From a virus, in the IMG/VR virus record IMGVR_UViG_3300045988_171586: a DNA stretch of 39,292 bases. One strand, given 5' to 3'. Shown in pieces: positions 2,591 to 31,588 of this stretch. Positions within the stretch are counted from its first letter, which is position 1, and every line of letters begins with the position of its first letter. Made by a program: the position numbers and the translations under genes. The notes below the pieces were generated by a model. The model was not told where the DNA came from. It saw only the letters and a program-made list of their open reading frames with translations, and did no database searches.

Positions 2591-3742
2591 ATGAAAGGAC
2601 GTGTTTTTATTATGGCTAGAAAAACAACATATAAGCGTAGACCTAATAATTCAGGAACAGTAGTTAAGTTATCAGGAAAGAGAAGAAAGCCCTACTGTGC
2701 AAGAATTTTAAGCAATGATAGAGATTTGATTACTGGTAGAAAGAAACAAGTAGCTATTGGCACTTTTGAAACTGAACTAGAAGCTTTAAATGCTCTATCT
2801 CTTTATCATATGACTTCTAATAGAGAAATAACAAAGAATGAAGCTAAAGAATTGAATAATGACTTATACAACAAAATACAATCCAAAAGAGATAACATAC
2901 CAACATTTAAAGAAATCTTTGATATTTTAAATGAAGAAGAGTTTTCATTGTTATCAAAATCATCAAAAGCTGGATATAATTCATGGATCAAACACTTTAA
3001 AAAAATATATAATAGAAAAATAAATGACATTGACTTGCAAGATTTACAATTTATTTTTGATAATGATAAATGCGGTACAGGAACCAAAAACCATATGAAA
3101 GTACTTTGTATTAAAATTTTCAAATACGCAGTTATTCATCAATATATTAATCGTGATGATGATTATACAGAATTTATTAATTGTGGTAAGAATGAAGAAA
3201 GTAAAAAGCATTATGCCTTCTCATATGATGAAATTAAGCGTTTGAGGGAAGAAAACACCGACATCGCTAAAATTATACTTATTTATATTTTTAGTGGACT
3301 ACGAGCAAATGAATTACTTAATATCGATAGAAAAGATATTCATATTGATGAAGTTTGTAATGATGATGGTGTTGAAAGAAAAGTATCTTATTTCTTTACT
3401 GGTTTAAAAACAGATGCAGGAAGAAACAGAGTTGTTCCAATCCATGATTTTATTAAACCTTTTGTAATTGAATTGCTGCTAAAGAAAAGAAAAAGAATTA
3501 TTGATAATACATATAGTATTTTTAAAGATGCTAGTTTCAATCCATATATGAAAGAATTAAACATGAATCATACCATGCATGATACAAGAGTTACATTTAC
3601 TACTTTATGTCAATTAAATAATGTTGATGTTTTTAGTAGAAAAAGAATTCTTGGCCACAAAATGAAAGATATTACTTTTGATACTTATACTGATACGATC
3701 ATCAATAAATTATTCGTAGAAATAAATAAAATCAAGGTGTGA
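2591..3742 (+). CDS. int: Tyrosine recombinase / phage integrase. An alternative start is at 2612.
   Basis: The N-terminus is an arm-binding-like basic region. The C-terminus carries H-x-x-R (HTMHDTR) and the catalytic-Tyr motif (LGHKMKDITFDTYTD). Confidence 0.9.
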   Translation: MKGRVFIMARKTTYKRRPNNSGTVVKLSGKRRKPYCARILSNDRDLITGRKKQVAIGTFETELEALNALSLYHMTSNREITKNEAKELNNDLYNKIQSKRDNIPTFKEIFDILNEEEFSLLSKSSKAGYNSWIKHFKKIYNRKINDIDLQDLQFIFDNDKCGTGTKNHMKVLCIKIFKYAVIHQYINRDDDYTEFINCGKNEESKKHYAFSYDEIKRLREENTDIAKIILIYIFSGLRANELLNIDRKDIHIDEVCNDDGVERKVSYFFTGLKTDAGRNRVVPIHDFIKPFVIELLLKKRKRIIDNTYSIFKDASFNPYMKELNMNHTMHDTRVTFTTLCQLNNVDVFSRKRILGHKMKDITFDTYTDTIINKLFVEINKIKV

Positions 3743-3976: not shown

Positions 3977-4013
3977 AAAAAACAACCCTAGCTAAATTGG
4001 CTAGGGTCTTTTC
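3977..4013. terminator. Bidirectional Rho-independent terminator between the lysogeny module and the endolysin gene.
   Basis: The stem CCCTAGC/GCTAGGG has loop TAAATTG. It is flanked by an A-run upstream and TCTTTT downstream, so a T-run follows on either strand. Confidence 0.6.
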
Positions 4014-4116
4014 ATGCAATTATTAGTTAATAAATAAAGTTGTTGAAATACTTTTGAAGAAATAGATAATATTCTTTTACTTTTTCTGTTAACTAACAAA
4101 TATATTATACTTCTAA

Positions 4117-4839
4117 TTAGACTTTTTTCAAGTAGTCTCCTGAAAGCCAACCTGAAGGAGTTCTAGCCCATCCATTCTTCCATTCGTAAACAGTTACTCT
4201 TGTTCCTCTTTCAAGACATCCATCTTTATCTTTATCATGTTTCTTTCCATCAGCAGTTAATTCATTATGAGTTTTTCTTCGATAATTAGTTCCAGAACCA
4301 GTTCTAACACTTAAATCACTAGCAGTAACTTCATATGTTCCTGTTGGTCTTTCACTTGATGAAGTCGATTGTGATGGTTTGGCTTGTGTAGGTGTTGAAG
4401 CAATAACTGCTTTTACGATTTCATCAAACGGAAAATTAGTTCCTGGGCAATTAGTAGAGCAAACATCTTTATGTTTTTGAACTTTAGAAATTCCATATTT
4501 TTTCTTTAAATAAGAAACTAATTCTCTACCCGCATTAATTTGTGTTTGACCCATTGTTTCTGTCATATAAGAACCTTCAAAACAAATTCCAATAGAATCA
4601 CTATTTGAACCTTTTGCATGTGATCCAACTGTATTTTCAGGTCTACCACGATAAATAGAGCCATCTTTTCTAACAAAGAAATGATAGCCAATACCTGCCC
4701 ATCCATTTGCTAAATGCCAACTATGGATATCATCTGCAGTACATGATTTTGATTCAGCATGATGTAAGATGATTCTATTTGTTGATTTTCTATTTTTTAA
4801 ATTTCCATTCCATTTATAATTTTTTTCAATAATATTCAT
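4117..4839 (-). CDS. Endolysin: N-acetylmuramoyl-L-alanine amidase (Amidase_2/PGRP-type) with a C-terminal SH3b-like cell-wall-binding domain.
   Basis: Amidase_2 motifs are IILHHAES and GIGYHFFVRKDGSIYRG...SIGICFEGSY. A Thr/Ser-rich linker follows. The C-terminus is SH3b-like (YEWKNGWARTPSGWLSGDYL). Confidence 0.9.
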   Translation of the reverse strand: MNIIEKNYKWNGNLKNRKSTNRIILHHAESKSCTADDIHSWHLANGWAGIGYHFFVRKDGSIYRGRPENTVGSHAKGSNSDSIGICFEGSYMTETMGQTQINAGRELVSYLKKKYGISKVQKHKDVCSTNCPGTNFPFDEIVKAVIASTPTQAKPSQSTSSSERPTGTYEVTASDLSVRTGSGTNYRRKTHNELTADGKKHDKDKDGCLERGTRVTVYEWKNGWARTPSGWLSGDYLKKV

Positions 4840-4854
4840 TTTTCTTTTTCTCCT

Positions 4855-5349
4855 TTATTCTACAAAACTCCAATCATTTGATAACATGTCAGCTTGAGAA
4901 GCTAACCAACCTAATTGAATACCACTTGTCCCATGGAAAGCGATGGCTTTGTTTCCCATATCTACGTGATCTACATTAATAACTTCATCATTAGGTGTTT
5001 TAAAAGATACATTTGTAGCAAGTTCAATATACTGTTCTTTACCGTTCCAACCTTTGCGTTTTACTTTCATTCCACGTTTTAAATACTTTATAGCTTCATC
5101 AAACCCAAATGTAGCAACTCCACCTAACTCAGGACAATTATTCTTATCGGCAATCATCCATTCATTACTACAAATATTTAAAGCTGTATATTCAACTCTT
5201 TCTGTTTCTCTGATGTCTAATTCTTTGCCTTCCTTAGTGTGCATGATGATTGTTTCTTTTTCATTATCATAAAACCAATAACCACTCCAACTTGGAAGTT
5301 TCATTTTCATTCCTTGTTTCATTAATTCTAAAGCTTTTTTAAATTCCAT
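4855..5349 (-). CDS. Tandem-DUF2829 protein (two DUF2829/Tad2-like repeats), 164 aa.
   Basis: Two internal repeats each have the A-x-E-x-x-K-x-G-x-K...GW signature: ALELMKQGMKMKLPSWSGYW and AIKYLKRGMKVKRKGWNGKEQY. The C-terminus is WLASQADMLSNDW, with a first-repeat counterpart SNEWMIADK. Confidence 0.6.
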   Translation of the reverse strand: MEFKKALELMKQGMKMKLPSWSGYWFYDNEKETIIMHTKEGKELDIRETERVEYTALNICSNEWMIADKNNCPELGGVATFGFDEAIKYLKRGMKVKRKGWNGKEQYIELATNVSFKTPNDEVINVDHVDMGNKAIAFHGTSGIQLGWLASQADMLSNDWSFVE

Positions 5350-5393
5350 AATTATTCTCCTTTTTTCAAAATTAAAGAGTAGCCCTTTTTTGA

Positions 5394-5819
5394 CTACTCA
5401 TTCTCTTGATCTTCATCATTGTTTAACTGTTCTAACGCAGTTTTGATTTTATTTGGAATTGGAACACCTAGATTAGAAATGTTTTCTAATAGGCTAATTC
5501 CTTCATTCGCAATATAGAAATACGCTACAAGCGTTCTAAATACCCAAGTGCCACCATTTCCAAGCATACGATCTAATTCCACTCCTACAATAAGAACGGC
5601 TAGAATCATGCATTTTTTAATTAATCCTCTAAAGCCGACCTCACTATTAAGTGTTTTAATTACATAAGCATAAATTACACCTGTCACATAATCTAATACC
5701 ATGAATGTAATTAAAATCTTTAAAGCTAAATCCCAGCCACCAAATAGATACGTAAAAAAAGTAGCTAAGATAGCTACTGCTGTGTTGAATACTTTTTCCA
5801 TATTATTCATTTTCCTCAC
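5394..5819 (-). CDS. Holin of the TcdE/phage_holin_4_1 family (toxin secretion / phage lysis holin).
   Basis: It has three predicted transmembrane segments, the family-typical FMVLDYVTGVIYA motif, and an acidic C-terminus (NNDEDQENE). Confidence 0.85.
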   Translation of the reverse strand: MRKMNNMEKVFNTAVAILATFFTYLFGGWDLALKILITFMVLDYVTGVIYAYVIKTLNSEVGFRGLIKKCMILAVLIVGVELDRMLGNGGTWVFRTLVAYFYIANEGISLLENISNLGVPIPNKIKTALEQLNNDEDQENE

Positions 5820-5822
5820 CTT

Positions 5823-6074
5823 CTACTTAAGAAATACAACACTGTATCCCTTTTCTAAGCCAACAAATGTATCATTAATTGTATTAACAGTTAACATTGT
5901 ATTTGCTCCAGTATAACTATCATTTTGTTGTTCATCTTTAACAACTACTCTAAATAATATATAATCTCCTGCTTTTAAATTCTTTGTATCAGTAATATAG
6001 AATTTATTAACTTGCACATCATTAAATGTTTTTTCACTTACATCTAATGTATATACGTTTGTCTTGTTATCCAT
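5823..6074 (-). CDS. Hypothetical small protein, 83 aa, between the tail-tip genes and the holin.
   Basis: The ORF has no overlap with neighbours and is tightly packed with the holin. No transmembrane segment is visible. Confidence 0.5.
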   Translation of the reverse strand: MDNKTNVYTLDVSEKTFNDVQVNKFYITDTKNLKAGDYILFRVVVKDEQQNDSYTGANTMLTVNTINDTFVGLEKGYSVVFLK

Positions 6075-6090
6075 ATTTTGTCTCCTTTTT

Positions 6091-6474
6091 TTAAGTTGTT
6101 TTGATATATTTCAATATTGCATAGCCTGTTGCATTTTGAAAACCATTTGATTGTCCAACTTGCAATATTAAATTTGTTTTAGTTATTTGAATAGAAATAC
6201 CATCATGATCATCATCTTTATGTGCGCGCGGCATCATGTGGTTTGTTCCATCACTTATTTTCATAAATAAATCACAACTCAATACTCTGTATAAATCTGA
6301 TATATTATGTGGTACATATTTATCCTTGCTATCAAACCCAGTTACGAGTATGACTTTGCAATATATCTTTACTCCGTTTATCCAGTATTCACCCGTAAAC
6401 TGTTCTTCAGTAGAATACTTAAAATAAACATCCTTTTTTCTAACTTTATTTCCAAAAAACTTAATAAATTTCAT
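6091..6474 (-). CDS. Tail-tip / receptor-binding-like paralog 1, 127 aa.
   Basis: The N-terminus MKFIKFFGNKVRKKDVYFKYSTEEQFTGEYWINGVKIY is shared with the paralog at 6908..7321. The C-terminus is divergent. Confidence 0.6.
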   Translation of the reverse strand: MKFIKFFGNKVRKKDVYFKYSTEEQFTGEYWINGVKIYCKVILVTGFDSKDKYVPHNISDLYRVLSCDLFMKISDGTNHMMPRAHKDDDHDGISIQITKTNLILQVGQSNGFQNATGYAILKYIKTT

Positions 6475-7321: not shown

Positions 7322-7403
7322 ACACAATCACCACTTGGTCCACTAATTAAATTAGCGCACCTTCTTTCTTTGGAAATGCAATATTTAAATAGTAAATATC
7401 GCA

Positions 7404-7411
7404 CCCCCCCC
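7404..7411. repeat. C8/G8 homopolymer tract in an intergenic mini-ORF.
   Basis: The run gcaCCCCCCCCgaag is the only long G/C homopolymer in a ~30% GC genome. On the - strand it lies inside a 15-codon ORF (7385..7432) that has an AAGGAGG RBS. Confidence 0.9.
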
Positions 7412-7448
7412 GAAGATTTTAAATTCTTGCATAATAGATTTTTCCTCC

Positions 7449-26504: not shown

Positions 26505-26578
26505 TGGTTGCAGGACTAGGATTCAAACCTAGAATACAAATTTAAGAGACTTGCGTGATATCATTTCACCATCCTGCC
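26505..26578 (-). tRNA. tRNA-like gene, tRNA-Lys(CUU)-like, 71 nt plus an encoded CCA. Non-canonical: G1:A72 mismatch, U56, and a single G in the D-loop.
   Basis: On the - strand the cloverleaf reads GGCAGGA-TG-GTGA-AATGATA-TCAC-G-CAAGT-CTCTTAA-ATTTG-TATT-CTAGG-TTTGAAT-CCTAG-TCCTGCA-ACCA. It has a 4-bp D stem, 5-bp anticodon stem, 5-bp T stem, U33 and A37 around the CUU anticodon, and A73 before CCA. Confidence 0.4.
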
Positions 26579-28559: not shown

Positions 28560-28738
28560 TTTGAATCACCTTCATTTACTGGATAATTTTCCAAATCCCA
28601 GTCTGCAGGAATTTTGCCCATACATTTGCATACGGGGTTTAGCTCACAGTTTTTGCATTCATCTTCCCCATGAGAGTTACAGTAATTTTTAAGAACCTGT
28701 AATGAGATGTACTCATTGATGTTAGTTGTTTTAATCAT
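28556..28738 (-). CDS. Small Cys-rich protein, 60 aa.
   Basis: Six cysteines occur in the patterns CNSHGEDECKNC and NPVCKC. Confidence 0.45.
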   Translation of the reverse strand: MIKTTNINEYISLQVLKNYCNSHGEDECKNCELNPVCKCMGKIPADWDLENYPVNEGDSK

Positions 28739-29145
28739 TCCAATTCCTCCAATCGAATATATATACCTGGTATTTCCGCCCAGAACTTTTCAATCAGCTC
28801 GCTGGCCACTCTGGAATCATTTACATAAAACCCTAATCTTTCCATGATGTCTTTCAATGCCTTGTTCAAATCATCAGTATCAGGCTTAGTATATTTGTAC
28901 TCTCCATCATGATGTTTACCAGCAATTGGAAAGCACCACCTGACGATTAATCTTAAAGGTCCATCAAAAGGCTTATCAGGAATATGTGGTATCAAATGAG
29001 CTTTCAGCTTTTCTTTTGCGGTTTTAAGTTCTGGTGGATCATAAAACTTCTTTGTGCCCATGTTCACCTTATGCTGTTGAGCAGTTGTAGTAGGTGGAAT
29101 CATAGGCATGAAAAATTCTATTTTTCTTTTCTTATTTTTCTCCAT
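28735..29145 (-). CDS. rusA: RusA-family Holliday junction resolvase, 136 aa.
   Basis: The C-terminal motif is KPDTDDLNKALKDIMERLGFYVNDSRV, a D-x-D-N-x-x-K...D signature. The position at the end of the replication module fits. Confidence 0.75.
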   Translation of the reverse strand: MEKNKKRKIEFFMPMIPPTTTAQQHKVNMGTKKFYDPPELKTAKEKLKAHLIPHIPDKPFDGPLRLIVRWCFPIAGKHHDGEYKYTKPDTDDLNKALKDIMERLGFYVNDSRVASELIEKFWAEIPGIYIRLEELE

Positions 29146-29196
29146 TTTTTTACTAGGGTGCTCTAGGTTTGGTGCCCTCTATCGTGCGGGGTGAGT

Positions 29197-29332
29197 GTTC
29201 GTCGTGCGTAAGCTGTCGCACGACACTTACCTCCGCGTTAGAGGGGTGCGCCAAAAATATTTATATTATGTATATAATATAGGTTCGTCGCACCCCCTAT
29301 GCGACCATGCGACACATCATAGTTCGTCGCAC
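29197..29332. repeat. GC-rich non-coding island with 11-mer direct repeats (GTTCGTCGCAC), inverted half-sites and an AT-rich spacer. Candidate origin of replication (iterons).
   Basis: GTTCGTCGCAC occurs at 29283..29293 and 29322..29332, with a 9/11 variant at 29197..29207. The inverted stem GTCGTGCG/CGCACGAC is at 29201..29224. TGCGAC occurs twice at 29300..29314. An AT-only stretch runs 29251..29281. Local GC is above 55%, against ~30% elsewhere. Confidence 0.5.
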
Positions 29333-29335
29333 TCT

Positions 29336-31588
29336 TTAGTTTTCCTTTCTTTTGATATATCTTTTGCCATCTTCTCCATAATATGCTTCGAAATTTGCAA
29401 CTAAATCTTCATTGCTTTTTTTGCCTTTTCCAAGCCAACCTAATAAAGTTTTTGGAACAGTATTCATTTTCTCTGCAAGCTCATCTGCAGGTACTTCTCT
29501 ACCCTCTATTTCAATATTTGAGAATTCTATTTCAAATTCATTCACTTTTTTCTTTTTATTCTTAGCAACTTGCTCATGTCTTTTTTCTTGTGCTTTTTGC
29601 CATTGAGGTTTTATATCATCAGGATCAATATCTTGAAGTGCTCCATCTTCATCCAATACATGTACTGGATATTCAAAATAAAGGTTTACTGGCGGAAATT
29701 TTGAGAACTCTCTCAATGTTCCTTCAATTCTCCATGCAGTAATTGATGTAGCTTTTGAACGTGCTTCATTGACAAGATTATCAAGTTCTTTGTAGTAGTC
29801 ATGGCCAAGCTTACTTTTACAAAAATCAATCATGATAGTTTGTGATAAAACATCATCTTGAGATAGTTCATTTAAAAGTTCAGGTCTATGTTCTTTTAAG
29901 TAATCGACACAAACTCTACATGCACTCATATTTCTTAACTGTTTGTAATGTGATTCATTTAGTTCCAATTCAATTAAATCTAGTAAAGCATCAGGATCAC
30001 GTGCAAATACACCTGAACCACTAGCGCGGTCCATACTTCTTTTACCACCTTGAGAACCTTTCGAATGGTGATGGCAGTAGATTACTGATGTACCTAACTC
30101 ATTACATATCTTGTCAAACTGGTTACAGAAATTAGCCATTTGGTCGGCACTGTTTTCATCTCCGGTAATAACTTTGTAGATTGGATCTATGACTACTGCT
30201 ATATAATCCTTTTTAGAAGCTCTTCTAATCAATTTAGGGGCAAGTTTATCCATGGGAATAGATTTACCCCTTAGGTTCCAAATATCGATATTAGACAAAG
30301 AATTAGGCTTAATGCCAAGTGCTTTATAAACATCCTTGAATCTATGCAAACATGATGGTCTATCTAACTCCAAATTGACATACAATATTCTTCCTCGAGC
30401 ACACTGCCATCCAAACCATTTTGTTCCTTCAGCAATCGCGATACACATCTCAATCAATGCAAATGACTTACCTGCTTTACTAGGTCCAGCAATAAGCATC
30501 TTGTGTCCTTGTCTTAGAATTCCTTCTATTAATGGCGGTGCAAGTTGAGGCATATCATCCCAAAATTCACTTAATGATTCAGGATCAGGTAAATCATCAT
30601 TGATGCTTTCAATCCATTCATACCACTCTTCCCAGGAACTTTTACCAATGTTGGTATCAACAAGGAATTGTTTTCTTCCTTTTCTTGTAATTCCTGGCAT
30701 TCTTGAAAGTCTCGAAGGATTTCTATTTTGAGTATCAACATCTAGTCCATTCTTTTTACAAATGTTATAGAGATAATCAACACGCTTACGATATTCCTTC
30801 ATATCTGCAGCTTCGATTTTTACAATCGCATGTAGGCTTTTACCACCTGAATGAACTAAACAAGCTATTGGAAGTTCTAATTCTCTCAGTACTGCATTTT
30901 GTTCTTCGATTGCCATTGAATCGCTTTCTACAAGAGCATATTTAAAATCGGTCACATTTTGGTTCTTACAGCCTTTTCCATCCAACGGGTTAAATCGTAT
31001 CCATGCACCTGCTTCTTCGTTGTAGTCGCCTAAAACTGCACCTATATCGCCTTTGCAATTATTCAACTGTTGTATAAGTTTTCCTGCAGTTCTATCCCAG
31101 CACCCTTGTGTTGGCAGATATTTTTCATCTTTAAGCCATGTTTTGGTTACATAGCCTACATTTTCAGTAGAATCAAAAAGTGTTTCCAGATAAGTAATTA
31201 ATTCAGCTACTGGATTCCAGTTAAGAGGCTCTTTGACCTCTTTCCCTTCAATCCAATTCTTATCAACTATGACCTGTTCATCTTTATCAATAACATCATT
31301 CCAGTCAAGTTCATGGCCACTTTCTTTTATTGGTGGAACCCACCCCTGATTTTTAGCATACTGAACAATAGTTCCGCCTGTTACACCTGAACCAGTAAAA
31401 GACTCCCATTTTCTATAGCATTCATTTTTATGATATCTTTTAGAGTCACGTTGACTCCAGTAATCCCAGTCACTAGCTGGATATCCTTCATATTTGAGTG
31501 CCATTCCAACACAACACCACTCTTGGTAGTCAAGCAAAGAAGGATCTATATTATTCAGTATTTCTAATAAATCAGTTGTATACTCCAT
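29336..31588 (-). CDS. DNA primase-polymerase / helicase, 750 aa. It has an N-terminal PriCT-2-like region, a prim-pol domain, and a RecA-like AAA_25/RepA-type helicase domain.
   Basis: The prim-pol-like region is ...VHSGGKSLHAIV.... Walker A is AGPSKAGKSF and Walker B is IAVVIDPI. Confidence 0.85.
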   Translation of the reverse strand: MEYTTDLLEILNNIDPSLLDYQEWCCVGMALKYEGYPASDWDYWSQRDSKRYHKNECYRKWESFTGSGVTGGTIVQYAKNQGWVPPIKESGHELDWNDVIDKDEQVIVDKNWIEGKEVKEPLNWNPVAELITYLETLFDSTENVGYVTKTWLKDEKYLPTQGCWDRTAGKLIQQLNNCKGDIGAVLGDYNEEAGAWIRFNPLDGKGCKNQNVTDFKYALVESDSMAIEEQNAVLRELELPIACLVHSGGKSLHAIVKIEAADMKEYRKRVDYLYNICKKNGLDVDTQNRNPSRLSRMPGITRKGRKQFLVDTNIGKSSWEEWYEWIESINDDLPDPESLSEFWDDMPQLAPPLIEGILRQGHKMLIAGPSKAGKSFALIEMCIAIAEGTKWFGWQCARGRILYVNLELDRPSCLHRFKDVYKALGIKPNSLSNIDIWNLRGKSIPMDKLAPKLIRRASKKDYIAVVIDPIYKVITGDENSADQMANFCNQFDKICNELGTSVIYCHHHSKGSQGGKRSMDRASGSGVFARDPDALLDLIELELNESHYKQLRNMSACRVCVDYLKEHRPELLNELSQDDVLSQTIMIDFCKSKLGHDYYKELDNLVNEARSKATSITAWRIEGTLREFSKFPPVNLYFEYPVHVLDEDGALQDIDPDDIKPQWQKAQEKRHEQVAKNKKKKVNEFEIEFSNIEIEGREVPADELAEKMNTVPKTLLGWLGKGKKSNEDLVANFEAYYGEDGKRYIKRKEN

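What the first reader, a model, noticed from the sequence alone, without database searches (positions are those of the whole stretch)
29146..29335. GC-rich iteron-like island between primase-helicase and RusA (candidate origin or structured element)
This is a ~190-nt non-coding stretch with more than 55% GC in its first 100 nt, inside a ~30% GC genome. It carries the 11-mer GTTCGTCGCAC twice exactly (29283, 29322) and once as a 9/11 variant (29197). It also has an 8-bp GC stem (GTCGTGCG...CGCACGAC), two TGCGAC inverted half-sites and a 30-nt pure A/T block. The combination of iterons, inverted repeats and an AT-rich unwinding element, next to the primase-helicase gene, is the classic layout of a phage or plasmid origin. 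A structured regulatory RNA is an alternative.
Basis: seen in the sequence. Interest (0 to 1): 0.55.

Follow-up and report, generated by a model that had tools for sequence, protein, structure and literature searches.

The report
Phage replication origin with priming hairpin
The GC-rich gap after the primase-helicase gene is very probably this gut-bacterium phage's replication origin, and it includes a long hairpin, shared by many phages of Bacillota, that probably tells the phage's primase where to start DNA synthesis.

Summary
The 190-nt gap at 29146-29335 holds two exact 11-mers, two inverted TGCGAC half-sites, an A/T palindrome and a GC-rich hairpin. The "origin" reading is supported by comparison with related phages, but the anatomy needs correcting.

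- **Iterons.** The true iterons are about 14 nt long (GGGTGCGACGAACC type). Their sequence changes between relatives together with the last ~60 residues of the primase-helicase, a winged-helix-like domain.
- **Third "copy".** The 9/11 copy at 29197 is not an iteron. It is one arm of an 88-nt hairpin (29168-29255).
- **Hairpin distribution.** The hairpin core occurs in more than 120 viral contigs and in Bacillota prophages. It almost always lies 110-470 nt downstream of a homologous primase-helicase. It has covarying stems and no Rfam match.
- **Folded strand.** The hairpin folds better on the strand antisense to the genes. Its apex carries GCGNNAGC, the DNA "mini-hairpin" motif of phage G4-type priming origins.
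- **Protein.** The protein combines an N-terminal PriCT domain, a primase domain of the archaeo-eukaryotic (AEP) type with a fold like RSF1010 RepB', and a helicase like RSF1010 RepA.

Best model: an RSF1010-like origin (iterons plus a single-strand initiation hairpin) served by one fused protein. Nothing has been tested experimentally. It is a new variant of a known kind, of moderate interest.

The parts
29336..31588 (-). Primase-helicase gene (750 aa). Domain order: N-terminal PriCT_2, then an archaeo-eukaryotic primase (AEP) domain, then a RepA-type helicase, then a C-terminal DNA-binding-like domain. It is the presumed origin-binding initiator.
   Evidence: Pfam gives PriCT_2 (aa 9-78) and AAA_25 (aa 351-512); PHROGs gives phrog_2597 'DNA primase'. 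The helicase region matches RSF1010 RepA (1g8y, E 2.6e-5). The AF2 model of aa 1-350 (pLDDT 89.6) matches the S-2L PrimPol AEP domain (E 2e-6) and RSF1010 RepB' (E 1.3e-5).
29339..29506 (-). Coding region for the variable C-terminal ~55 aa. It is predicted to be a helix-turn-helix followed by a beta-hairpin (winged-helix-like). The predicted recognition helix is PKTLLGWL.
   Evidence: AF2 pLDDT is 70-77 over this part. Its structural neighbours are all winged-helix regulators, with weak E-values of 0.1-0.7. The residue X in TLLXWL co-varies with the fifth base of the iteron core TGCG[A/C].
29321..29335 (-). Iteron 1. The gene strand reads AGAGTGCGACGAACT. It begins right after the stop codon.
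   Evidence: The same position holds GGGTGCGACCGACC, GGGTGCGCACGACC or GGGTGCGCTCGACC in relatives.
29300..29313 (+). Two TGCGAC half-sites, inverted relative to iterons 1 and 2.
   Evidence: They are present and change in step with the iterons in relatives.
29282..29297 (-). Iteron 2. The gene strand reads GGGGGTGCGACGAACC.
29262..29281 (.). Perfect 8-bp palindrome with a 4-nt centre (TATATTAT-GTAT-ATAATATA on the + strand), inside the A/T block 29253-29281.
   Evidence: repeat I12. Most of 73 distinct upstream regions have a 5-11-bp palindrome whose centre is usually TAC or TAAA, typically 34-38 nt from the hairpin core. Its stem is either A/T or G/C.
29243..29252 (+). Inverted iteron-like site GGGGTGCGCC, on the far side of the palindrome. 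It overlaps the base of the hairpin.
   Evidence: (repeat I1). Its sequence follows the iteron type in relatives.
29168..29255 (+). Conserved long hairpin, folded on the + strand (antisense to the genes). The outer stem is 29175-29181 / 29239-29245. The invariant inner stem is 29201-29208 / 29217-29224. The loop is 29209-29216. It is the proposed single-strand initiation (priming) signal.
   Evidence: Fold z-scores are -6.1 (+ strand) and -4.6 (- strand) with DNA parameters. With RNA parameters, the 86-nt hairpin stretch folds at -51.0 kcal/mol on the + strand and -38.9 on the - strand. The covariance model hits 29181-29239 on the + strand at 33.6 bits. Covariation is shown. The core is found in more than 120 viral contigs.
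29206..29213 (+). GCGTAAGC, a match to the DNA mini-hairpin consensus GCGNNAGC at the hairpin apex. The opposite strand has GCGACAGC at 29212-29219.
   Evidence: The motif and its occurrence at G4, St-1 and alpha3 priming sites are described in PMC13037366.
29156..29177 (+). Further iteron-like half-sites, GGGTGCTC (29156-29163) and GGTGCCC (29171-29177), between the hairpin and rusA.
   Evidence: This stretch (gene strand GGGCACCAAACCTAGAGCACCC) is conserved in window-type relatives.

Best explanation
The gap is the phage's origin of replication, organised like RSF1010 oriV but served by a single fused protein. The steps below are inferred from anatomy and comparison.

1. The variable C-terminal winged-helix-like domain of the primase-helicase binds the iterons. 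These are two direct ~14-mers, two inverted half-sites, and an inverted copy beyond the palindrome.
2. The RepA-type helicase assembles there and opens the DNA at or near the palindrome.
3. As the region to the left is unwound, the + strand (the template strand of the genes) folds into the conserved 88-nt hairpin with its GCGNNAGC apex.
4. The RepB'-like primase domain, helped by PriCT, recognises this hairpin as a single-strand initiation signal.
5. The primase makes a primer on the single-stranded stretch 3' of the hairpin, which is the palindrome region.
6. The host polymerase extends the primer leftwards, in the same direction as transcription of the late genes.

What is shown: the anatomy, its conservation, the protein-DNA co-variation, the stem covariation, the strand bias and the protein folds. 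What is inferred: binding, melting, the site and direction of priming, and that the folded molecule is DNA rather than RNA.
For: **Position**
- The element lies directly downstream of the initiator gene. In 113 of the 114 pattern-retrieved loci that hold enough upstream sequence, the hairpin is 110-470 nt downstream of a homologous primase-helicase on the same strand.

**Iterons track the protein**
- Among pairs of loci whose helicase cores are at least 85% identical, the 9-mer overlap of the repeat regions is 0.63 when the C-terminal 60 aa are at least 90% identical. It is 0.005 when they are under 40% identical.
- L014 and L017 are 95% identical to the window protein over aa 1-706, yet have a different C-terminus and GGTGTCA repeats.
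- TLLGWL goes with TGCGA, and TLL(A/S)WL goes with TGCGC, in every lineage listed.

**Hairpin is a selected structure**
- In the outer stem, pairs 5 and 6 use all four Watson-Crick types and pair in 48 of 48 sequences. No shuffle out of 2000 reaches the observed pairing.
- In 85 distinct hairpins, 96% of cells are standard pairs.
- Compensatory changes occur in the inner stem: GTTGTGCG/CGCACAAC in L001, and GAGGGGCG/CGCCCCCTC in the S. pyogenes prophage Javan488.

**Strand**
- The antisense strand folds better in 68 of 75 sequences and has 239 G.U pairs against 55.
- In 153 loci retrieved by protein alone, the antisense strand is more stable in 123 against 24, and in 35 against 9 clusters.
- One stem position is G.T in 52 of 81 sequences. 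It would be A.C on the other strand.

**Protein**
- The primase domain's best PDB fold matches include RepB' bound to its ssiA initiator DNA (3h25).
- The helicase matches RSF1010 RepA.
- The domain order fits the prophage-borne 'InversePrim' primase family (PMC5862659).

**Precedents**
- RSF1010: iterons plus ssiA/ssiB hairpins primed by RepB'. pRN1 and phage BIP-1: a stem-loop origin downstream of the primase-helicase gene (PMC4234260).
- SaPI: iterons flanking an A/T region downstream of rep, read by a C-terminal winged helix (PMC9371898).
- GCGNNAGC occurs at G4-type priming sites (PMC13037366).
Against: - There is no experiment of any kind on this phage family.
- The C-terminus and the repeats are physically adjacent. 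Part of their co-variation could reflect linkage in recombination cassettes rather than recognition.
- The C-terminal model has only moderate confidence, and its fold matches are weak.
- The palindrome is GC-rich in some relatives. An A/T unwinding element is therefore not a conserved feature, and the melting site is unknown.
- With DNA energy parameters the two strands fold almost equally on average (-21.5 against -21.0 kcal/mol).
- Among 12 clusters of the pattern-retrieved set, the G.U bias is only 8 against 2.
- The mini-hairpin motif does not settle the strand. It lies on both strands in most window-type hairpins, on the gene strand only in 3 loci, and on the antisense strand only in 9 loci of other groups. 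It is absent from most Javan488-like and Vegas-like loci.
- Only about half of the sampled family members have a hairpin that the model detects.
- RSF1010 has two ssi signals on opposite strands. Here there is only one.
Confidence: 0.68

Rival explanations
1. The hairpin acts as RNA transcribed from the + strand, antisense to the replication genes. It could be an RNA primer or R-loop former at the origin, or a small antisense RNA that controls primase-helicase expression or copy number.
For: - G.U-type pairs and lower RNA folding energy favour the + strand.
- Transcript-primed origins are established for ColE1, T7 and T4 (general knowledge, not tested here).
Against: - The window has no sigma-70-like promoter on the + strand upstream of the hairpin and no terminator-like site on either strand.
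- Only 13 of 79 loci have any promoter-like site pointing at the hairpin, and at scattered positions.
- There is no Rfam match.
- The invariant apex motif GCGNNAGC is described as a DNA structure (PMC13037366).
- The adjacent protein carries its own primase domain.
Confidence: 0.1
2. The hairpin works in the sense mRNA, between the primase-helicase and the next gene. It would act as a processing, stability or translational control element for the downstream gene (rusA here).
For: - The region is almost certainly co-transcribed with the flanking genes, because no terminator is found.
- The sense strand also folds well (z = -5.6 for the whole gap; z = -4.6 for the hairpin with DNA parameters).
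Against: - The sense strand is the consistently weaker fold and shows A.C at positions that are G.T on the other strand.
- The element follows the primase-helicase, not the downstream gene, which differs between relatives.
- It is always embedded in the repeats and palindrome.
Confidence: 0.07
3. The repeats and palindromes are operator sites for a transcription regulator, for example a switch between early and late genes. The hairpin would then be a double-stranded palindromic binding site or a cruciform, with no role in replication.
For: - The region has many direct and inverted short repeats and a perfect palindrome at fixed spacing.
- It lies at the boundary between the replication genes and the downstream genes.
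Against: - The repeats co-vary with the C-terminus of the primase-helicase itself.
- The strand-asymmetric wobble pairs are not expected for a double-stranded site.
- The stems covary freely in sequence. This fits a structure rather than a protein-read sequence.
Confidence: 0.06

Closest known systems
RSF1010 (IncQ) oriV with RepC, RepA and RepB'
   Same: - Both have iterons and hairpin single-strand initiation signals within one compact origin.
- The helicase here matches RepA by sequence.
- The primase domain matches RepB' by fold, including the RepB'-ssiA complex.
- In RSF1010, priming occurs 3' of the stem-loop and replication runs in leading-strand mode (PMC4234260; PMC8567376 abstract).
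   Different: - One fused polypeptide here against three proteins in RSF1010.
- One hairpin on one strand here against ssiA and ssiB on opposite strands.
- The iteron reader here is a C-terminal winged-helix-like domain, not RepC.
- The replicon is a phage of Bacillota, not a proteobacterial plasmid.
- Sequence similarity between this hairpin and ssiA/ssiB was not tested.
SaPI origins (Staphylococcus aureus pathogenicity islands)
   Same: - The origin lies immediately downstream of the initiator-helicase gene.
- Short iterons in opposite orientation lie on both sides of a central region.
- A C-terminal winged helix gives iteron specificity.
- In SaPI5 the primase and helicase are fused (PriRep5) (PMC9371898).
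   Different: - The passages of PMC9371898 that were read do not mention a conserved long hairpin in SaPI origins.
- The helicase here is of the RepA (RecA-fold) type, whereas that paper places the SaPI Reps in the 'pre-sensor II insert' clade.
- Here the central element is conserved as a palindrome rather than as an A/T tract.
pRN1 and Bordetella phage BIP-1 stem-loop origins
   Same: A roughly 100-nt stem-loop directly downstream of a primase-helicase gene with a winged-helix domain. In pRN1 it is required for replication, and its integrity matters (PMC4234260).
   Different: - pRN1 has no iterons.
- Its helicase is superfamily 3.
- Its primase belongs to the PrimPol-proper family, with the helical domain after the primase domain.
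- There is no sequence relation to the hairpin here.
Complementary-strand origins of phages G4, St-1 and alpha3 (primase-dependent hairpin I with GCGAAAGC or GCGTTAGC)
   Same: An 8-bp-stem hairpin whose apex contains GCGNNAGC, located at a site where a primase starts synthesis on single-stranded DNA. GCGAAAGC and GCGTTAGC both occur among the relatives here.
   Different: - Those origins are read by host DnaG on an SSB-coated single-stranded phage genome.
- Here the genome is double-stranded and the candidate reader is a phage AEP-type primase.
- The role of the motif here is a lead drawn from the literature, not a result.
Phage P4 alpha protein with ori and crr
   Same: One protein combines primase, helicase and a C-terminal winged-helix origin binder that reads short repeats (as summarised in PMC4234260).
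   Different: - P4 alpha has a bacterial Toprim-type primase (PMC4234260).
- Its helicase is superfamily 3, its origin is not adjacent to the gene in the same way, and it needs a second site, crr (these three points from general knowledge).
- No hairpin signal is known there.

Membership tests
Iteron-type origin next to its initiator gene (SaPI, P4, RSF1010 kind) | Several short repeats, direct and inverted, clustered in a non-coding stretch | tested here: met
   There are two exact 11-mers (about 14-mers when extended), two inverted TGCGAC sites and one inverted GGGGTGCGCC site. 0.4% of shuffles give any repeated 11-mer.
Iteron-type origin next to its initiator gene (SaPI, P4, RSF1010 kind) | Repeat sequence is specific to, and changes with, the initiator's DNA-binding domain | tested here: met
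   Repeat-region similarity follows the identity of the C-terminal 60 aa, not that of the helicase core. G against A/S in the predicted recognition helix goes with A against C in the repeat. Caveat: the two features are physically linked.
Iteron-type origin next to its initiator gene (SaPI, P4, RSF1010 kind) | A/T-rich unwinding element flanked by the repeats | tested here: inconclusive
   It is present in the window (29253-29281, 28/29 A/T). The homologous element in some relatives is a G/C palindrome.
Iteron-type origin next to its initiator gene (SaPI, P4, RSF1010 kind) | Initiator binds the repeats, and the fragment supports or interferes with replication | not testable with these tools
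   This needs EMSA or footprinting and an origin-function assay.
RSF1010-type single-strand initiation signal (ssi) | Conserved hairpin within the origin that forms in single-stranded DNA | tested here: met
   The structure is conserved with covariation. DNA-fold z-score is -6.1. The strand bias points to single-strand selection. DNA against RNA is not resolved.
RSF1010-type single-strand initiation signal (ssi) | A cognate RepB'-like AEP primase is encoded by the replicon | tested here: met
   The AF2 model (pLDDT 89.6) matches RepB' entries 3h20 and 3h25 at E about 1e-5, probability 1.00.
RSF1010-type single-strand initiation signal (ssi) | Two signals on opposite strands (ssiA and ssiB) | tested here: not met
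   The covariance model finds one site per locus. The weaker opposite-strand hits are at the same coordinates.
RSF1010-type single-strand initiation signal (ssi) | Primer synthesis starts at a defined base 3' of the hairpin | not testable with these tools
   This needs an in vitro priming assay.
G4-type priming hairpin / DNA mini-hairpin | GCGNNAGC or GCGNAGC at the apex of the hairpin | tested here: met
   The window has GCGTAAGC (+ strand, 29206-29213) and GCGACAGC (- strand). Caveat: the search pattern itself required GCGNNAG on the gene strand, so only the following C (at least 90% conserved) is independent evidence.
G4-type priming hairpin / DNA mini-hairpin | Recognition by a primase on SSB-coated single-stranded DNA | not testable with these tools
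   A biochemical assay is needed.
Any Rfam RNA family | Match to a curated covariance model | tested here: not met
   No match covers the gap 29146-29335 at gathering score or at E up to 10; the three weak chance-level matches lie in the flanking genes. No match at the hairpin in 12 diverse loci.
Intrinsic transcription terminator | G+C-rich stem followed directly by a T/U run | tested here: not met
   There are 0 terminator-like sites on either strand in 28900-29600.
InversePrim AEP primase family (for the protein; PMC5862659) | PriCT domain precedes the AEP domain, a RepA-family helicase follows, His is present in motif II, and the gene is carried by a Firmicutes prophage | tested here: met
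   PriCT_2 covers aa 9-78. The AEP fold covers roughly aa 125-330 of the model (read from the secondary structure). The RepA match is at aa 361-527. SGGKSLH is invariant. Close homologues are named from Faecalibacillus faecis and Coprobacillaceae. Note: the paper calls the domain PriCT-1, whereas Pfam scores PriCT_2 here. No sequence from the paper's data set was compared.

The most novel reading that the evidence does not exclude
The conserved hairpin is the first defined template recognition signal for the prophage-borne InversePrim primase-helicases. It would be a sequence- and structure-specific single-stranded DNA start site with these properties:
- an invariant 8-bp stem, a GAC/GTC triplet bulge and a GCGNNAGC apex that can switch into a DNA mini-hairpin;
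- launch of unidirectional leading-strand synthesis co-oriented with transcription;
- exchange between phages, together with the iterons and the C-terminal reader domain, as one origin-specificity cassette.
Probability: 0.4. Interest if true: 0.65.

Novelty: new variant of a known kind. Interest (0 to 1): 0.55.

Why it matters
- **Annotation.** It would place the replication origin for a large, mostly uncultured group of temperate phages of gut and soil Bacillota (Faecalibacillus, Lachnospiraceae, Erysipelotrichaceae, Bacillaceae, and more distantly streptococcal prophages). No origin feature appeared in the four annotated phage records inspected, and Rfam has no model for the hairpin.
- **Testable substrate.** It gives a concrete DNA substrate for an archaeo-eukaryotic-type primase family that, as far as I could find, is known only from sequence analysis.
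- **Evolution.** It links the three-protein IncQ plasmid initiation system to a fused phage protein.
- **Specificity code.** It offers a natural co-variation table between recognition-helix residue and iteron base for origin specificity.
- **Practical uses.** These include origin-based phage-resistance constructs, replicons for genetically intractable gut Firmicutes, and a covariance model for marking origins in viromes.

Tried and rejected
- **DNA similarity to deposited phages.** No match for the gap or for the 8-kb replication module. A consensus hairpin query found a single unannotated faecal phage.
- **Rfam.** Nothing at gathering score or at permissive thresholds. I recalled the ssNA-helicase motif as a lead, but no Rfam family, ssNA-helicase included, scored on the hairpin. 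The one paper that mentions it is unrelated.
- **MAFFT plus RNAalifold on raw flanks.** This recovered only the invariant inner stem, because the outer stems were misaligned. I replaced it with end-anchored pair counts and a covariance-model alignment.
- **Pattern scan of bacterial genomes.** About three quarters of the 120 hits were chance matches in GC-rich genomes. About 31 were real, all in Bacillota.
- **Sequence searches of the PDB and NCBIfam for the middle domain.** Nothing useful. Pfam gave only a faint DNA_primase_S hint at E = 0.22. The fold was settled by AF2 plus Foldseek.
- **Promoter and terminator scans.** No support for a dedicated transcript.
- **Mini-hairpin motif as a strand test.** Inconclusive.
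- **Rejected readings.** Intrinsic terminator (no T run). Regulator of rusA (the downstream gene varies between relatives). Packaging site (the small terminase gene lies 2.6 kb away and the element tracks the primase). Chance (conservation across relatives).
- **Literature on older dairy-phage origins.** From memory, the Sfi21-type origin lies downstream of a primase gene. The library search for it returned nothing relevant, so it is not used as evidence.
Full report
**1. Setting**

The window is 32.3% GC. Almost all its genes are on the minus strand.

Read along the gene strand, the replication module runs as follows:
- an AAA_23 ATPase;
- a Sak4-like AAA_24 protein;
- a phrog_2698 protein;
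- a ResIII/SNF2 helicase;
- a 750-aa "DNA primase" (29336-31588);
- the 190-nt gap;
- RusA (28735-29145).

Proteins about 89% identical to the primase are named in public records from Faecalibacillus faecis and Coprobacillaceae. The host is therefore probably a low-GC human-gut Erysipelotrichales bacterium.

**2. The observation**

- The A/T block has one G. Its core is a perfect 8-bp palindrome at 29262-29281.
- The 9/11 "third copy" belongs to a different element (section 4).

An exact repeated 11-mer arises in 0.4% of shuffles of the gap. All three GTGCGAC heptamers of the 39-kb window lie in the gap.

**3. The repeats behave as iterons read by the protein encoded next to them**

I fetched 33 loci from viral contigs by similarity to the primase. 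Close relatives keep the same layout after the stop codon:
- a 14-mer;
- two inverted half-sites;
- a second 14-mer;
- a palindrome;
- an inverted copy.

The 14-mer itself differs between phages: GGGTGCGACGAACC...GACCGACC...GCACGACC...GCTCGACC. More distant relatives use unrelated repeats (GGTGTCA, GGGGTCA, TTTCCC/GGGAA, GGGACA).

The protein's last ~60 residues vary in parallel.
- Among pairs of loci whose helicase cores are at least 85% identical, the shared 9-mer content of the repeat region falls from 0.63 to 0.005 as C-terminal identity falls from at least 90% to under 40%.
- L014 and L017 are 95% identical to the window protein over residues 1-706. They then switch to a different C-terminus and to GGTGTCA repeats. 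The reader domain and the origin therefore move together as a cassette.
- At single-residue level, TLLGWL goes with TGCGA in six distinct C-terminal backgrounds (nine listed loci). TLL(A/S)WL goes with TGCGC in about ten.

An AF2 model of the C-terminus is only moderately confident (pLDDT 70-77 over the last 50 residues). It places that residue in the second helix of a helix-turn-helix followed by a beta-hairpin. All its structural neighbours are winged-helix DNA binders, at weak E-values.

Because the reader domain and the repeats are adjacent, linkage contributes to the co-variation. The residue-base correspondence is harder to explain that way.

**4. The GC-rich half is a separate, widely conserved hairpin**

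The stretch 29168-29255 folds into a long hairpin. Its inner 8-bp stem and loop (GTCGTGCG-NNAGCTNN-CGCACGAC, followed by GA on the gene strand) are unchanged in relatives with completely different iterons.

*Distribution*
- In 113 of the 114 loci that hold enough upstream sequence, it lies 110-470 nt downstream of a homologue of the window primase-helicase, on the same strand.
- The exception, L061, has a methyltransferase-like ORF upstream instead.
- In bacterial genomes, about 31 of 120 pattern hits are genuine. All are in Bacillota: Hungatella, Dorea, Blautia, Lachnospiraceae, Erysipelotrichaceae, Bacillus, Lederbergia, Pullulanibacillus and others. The rest are chance hits in GC-rich genomes.
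- Rfam has no match.

*Structure*
- In the outer stem, the two variable pairs use all four Watson-Crick combinations and are paired in 48 of 48 sequences.
- A covariance model built from ten sequences finds the window element at 29181-29239 on the + strand (33.6 bits). It also finds a hairpin in about half of 100 family loci, including the S. pyogenes M1 prophage Javan488.
- In the model-guided alignment of 85 distinct hairpins, 96% of cells are standard pairs. This alignment leans towards the model.
- The inner stem shows compensatory changes in L001-type phages (GTTGTGCG/CGCACAAC) and is wholly replaced in Javan488 (GAGGGGCG...CGCCCCCTC).
- In 153 distinct loci retrieved only by protein similarity, 147 have a 70-nt window folding at -28 kcal/mol or better within 560 nt of the stop codon.

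**5. Which strand folds**

- The strand antisense to the genes (the window + strand) folds better in 68 of 75 pattern-retrieved sequences. It carries 239 G.U pairs against 55.
- In the protein-retrieved set it is the more stable strand in 123 loci against 24, and in 35 clusters against 9.
- One middle-stem position is G.T in 52 of 81 hairpins. It would be A.C on the gene strand.
- The bias is weaker when counted over the 12 clusters of the first set (8 against 2). It nearly vanishes with DNA energy parameters.

I take the + strand as the selected strand with moderate confidence. This does not by itself separate antisense RNA from single-stranded DNA.

**6. RNA or DNA**

Against RNA:
- No promoter-like site in the window points at the hairpin, and there is no terminator-like site.
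- Only 13 of 79 loci have any promoter-like match on that strand, at scattered positions.

For DNA:
- The apex motif GCG-NN-AGC (window: GCGTAAGC on the + strand, GCGACAGC on the - strand) equals the consensus of the unusually stable DNA mini-hairpin.
- That motif is described at the primase start sites of phages G4 (GCGAAAGC), St-1 and alpha3 (GCGTTAGC). A related form occurs in RSF1010 ssiA (PMC13037366). Both of those octamers occur among the relatives here.
- My search pattern forced part of the motif on the gene strand. In unbiased loci the motif is not universal and does not settle the strand. It is a lead rather than proof.

**7. The protein**

- Pfam sees PriCT_2 at the N-terminus and AAA_25 in the middle.
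- The AAA_25 region matches the RSF1010 RepA helicase by sequence.
- The stretch between them has invariant ALVESD, SGGKSLH and NPSRLSRMPG motifs.
- A high-confidence AF2 model of residues 1-350 (pLDDT 89.6) matches the archaeo-eukaryotic primase (AEP) domain of cyanophage S-2L PrimPol. It also matches RSF1010 RepB', including the complex with its initiator DNA.
- The order PriCT, then AEP, then RepA helicase, in Firmicutes prophages, is what Kazlauskas et al. called the InversePrim family (PMC5862659). In the passages I read, they describe no origin.

**8. A second conserved element**

In most of 73 distinct upstream regions a perfect palindrome of 5-11 bp lies upstream of the hairpin, typically 34-38 nt from its core. 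Its centre is usually TAC or TAAA (54 of 73). Its arms can be TATATATA, TACCCCCC or TACTCTCCC.

The window's version is TATATTAT-ATAC-ATAATATA on the gene strand. The conserved features are the symmetry and the spacing, not A/T content.

**9. Model and comparison**

The best-supported reading is an origin built like RSF1010 oriV, with iterons plus a hairpin that signals single-strand initiation. Here RepC-like reading, RepA-like unwinding and RepB'-like priming are combined in one polypeptide.

On the + strand, the palindrome lies 3' of the hairpin. This is where RepB' starts its primer relative to ssiA (PMC4234260). Extension from there would run leftwards, co-directional with transcription.

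A RepA-type helicase moves 5' to 3' (my own knowledge of RSF1010 RepA). Loaded on the minus strand, it would expose exactly this + strand segment. These last steps are inference.

Other close precedents:
- SaPI origins: iterons on both sides of a central region just downstream of rep, read by a C-terminal winged helix (PMC9371898).
- pRN1 and phage BIP-1: a stem-loop origin downstream of a primase-helicase gene (PMC4234260).

Differences from RSF1010: one hairpin instead of two on opposite strands, a fused protein, and a palindrome of unknown role.

**10. Verdict**

The finding is real, and the origin interpretation is largely right. The added value is the widespread hairpin, which I could not find described in Rfam or in the searchable literature, and the iteron/reader-domain cassette. 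I rate it a new variant of a known kind, with moderate interest.

Noticed in passing
window 29262-29281; related loci L034-L153: A perfect palindrome, centred on TAC or TAAA in 54 of 73 distinct loci, typically lies 34-38 nt from the hairpin core. Its arms are A/T in some phages and G/C in others (for example TACCCCCC-TAAA-GGGGGGTA). It looks like a second structural element, not merely an A/T-rich tract.
   Followed up: partly
L014 and L017 (primase match 4001-6112, origin about 6200-6420), compared with window 29146-29600: These phages share 95% identity with the window primase-helicase up to residue 706. They then carry a different C-terminal domain, different iterons (GGTGTCA) and a different hairpin subtype. 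This is a clean recombination cassette for origin specificity.
   Followed up: partly
window 29197-29207 compared with 29283-29293 and 29322-29332: In this phage the iteron (gene strand GTGCGACGAAC) differs at only two bases from the invariant hairpin arm (GCACGACGAAC). The arm is the same in phages with unrelated iterons. The resemblance may be coincidence, or it may be reader-domain mimicry of the hairpin.
   Followed up: no
window 29197-29224 (+ strand GTTCGTCGTGCG...CGCACGAC): The triplet repeat GTC-GTC-GTG, and GAC-GAC on the other arm, lets the inner stem slip by 3 nt. RNAfold gives two alternative registers in different relatives: an 8-bp stem plus a bulge, or one continuous helix with a larger loop.
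   Followed up: no
L061 (hairpin at 1923-1947 in the oriented locus): This is the one locus where the iterons and hairpin are not preceded by a primase-helicase within 1.9 kb. A DNA methyltransferase-like ORF (motif FDPFSGSGTT) lies upstream instead.
   Followed up: partly
window 26505-26578 (-): A tRNA-Lys (anticodon CUU) lies just upstream of the small terminase gene. The mechanically called TTG start of that ORF (26526) overlaps the tRNA by 22 nt, so the real start is probably further in.
   Followed up: no
window 7356-7405 (-): Two iteron-like GGTGCG motifs (GGGGGGGTGCGAT and AGGTGCGCT) lie 44 nt apart in the gap 7328-7448. They fall inside a possible ~38-codon ORF with a good ribosome-binding site. 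This is probably coincidence, but a second binding site for the initiator (compare P4 crr) was not excluded.
   Followed up: no
L155 (Javan488, 3628-3692), L154 (Paenibacillus phage Vegas, about 3640-3700), L156 (Enterococcus phage EFC-1, about 3520-3570): Cultured or named relatives have iterons, a palindrome and a strong hairpin downstream of the same gene. No annotated origin feature appears in the retrieved stretches of these records. In Vegas the stretch is annotated as a 40-codon hypothetical protein.
   Followed up: partly
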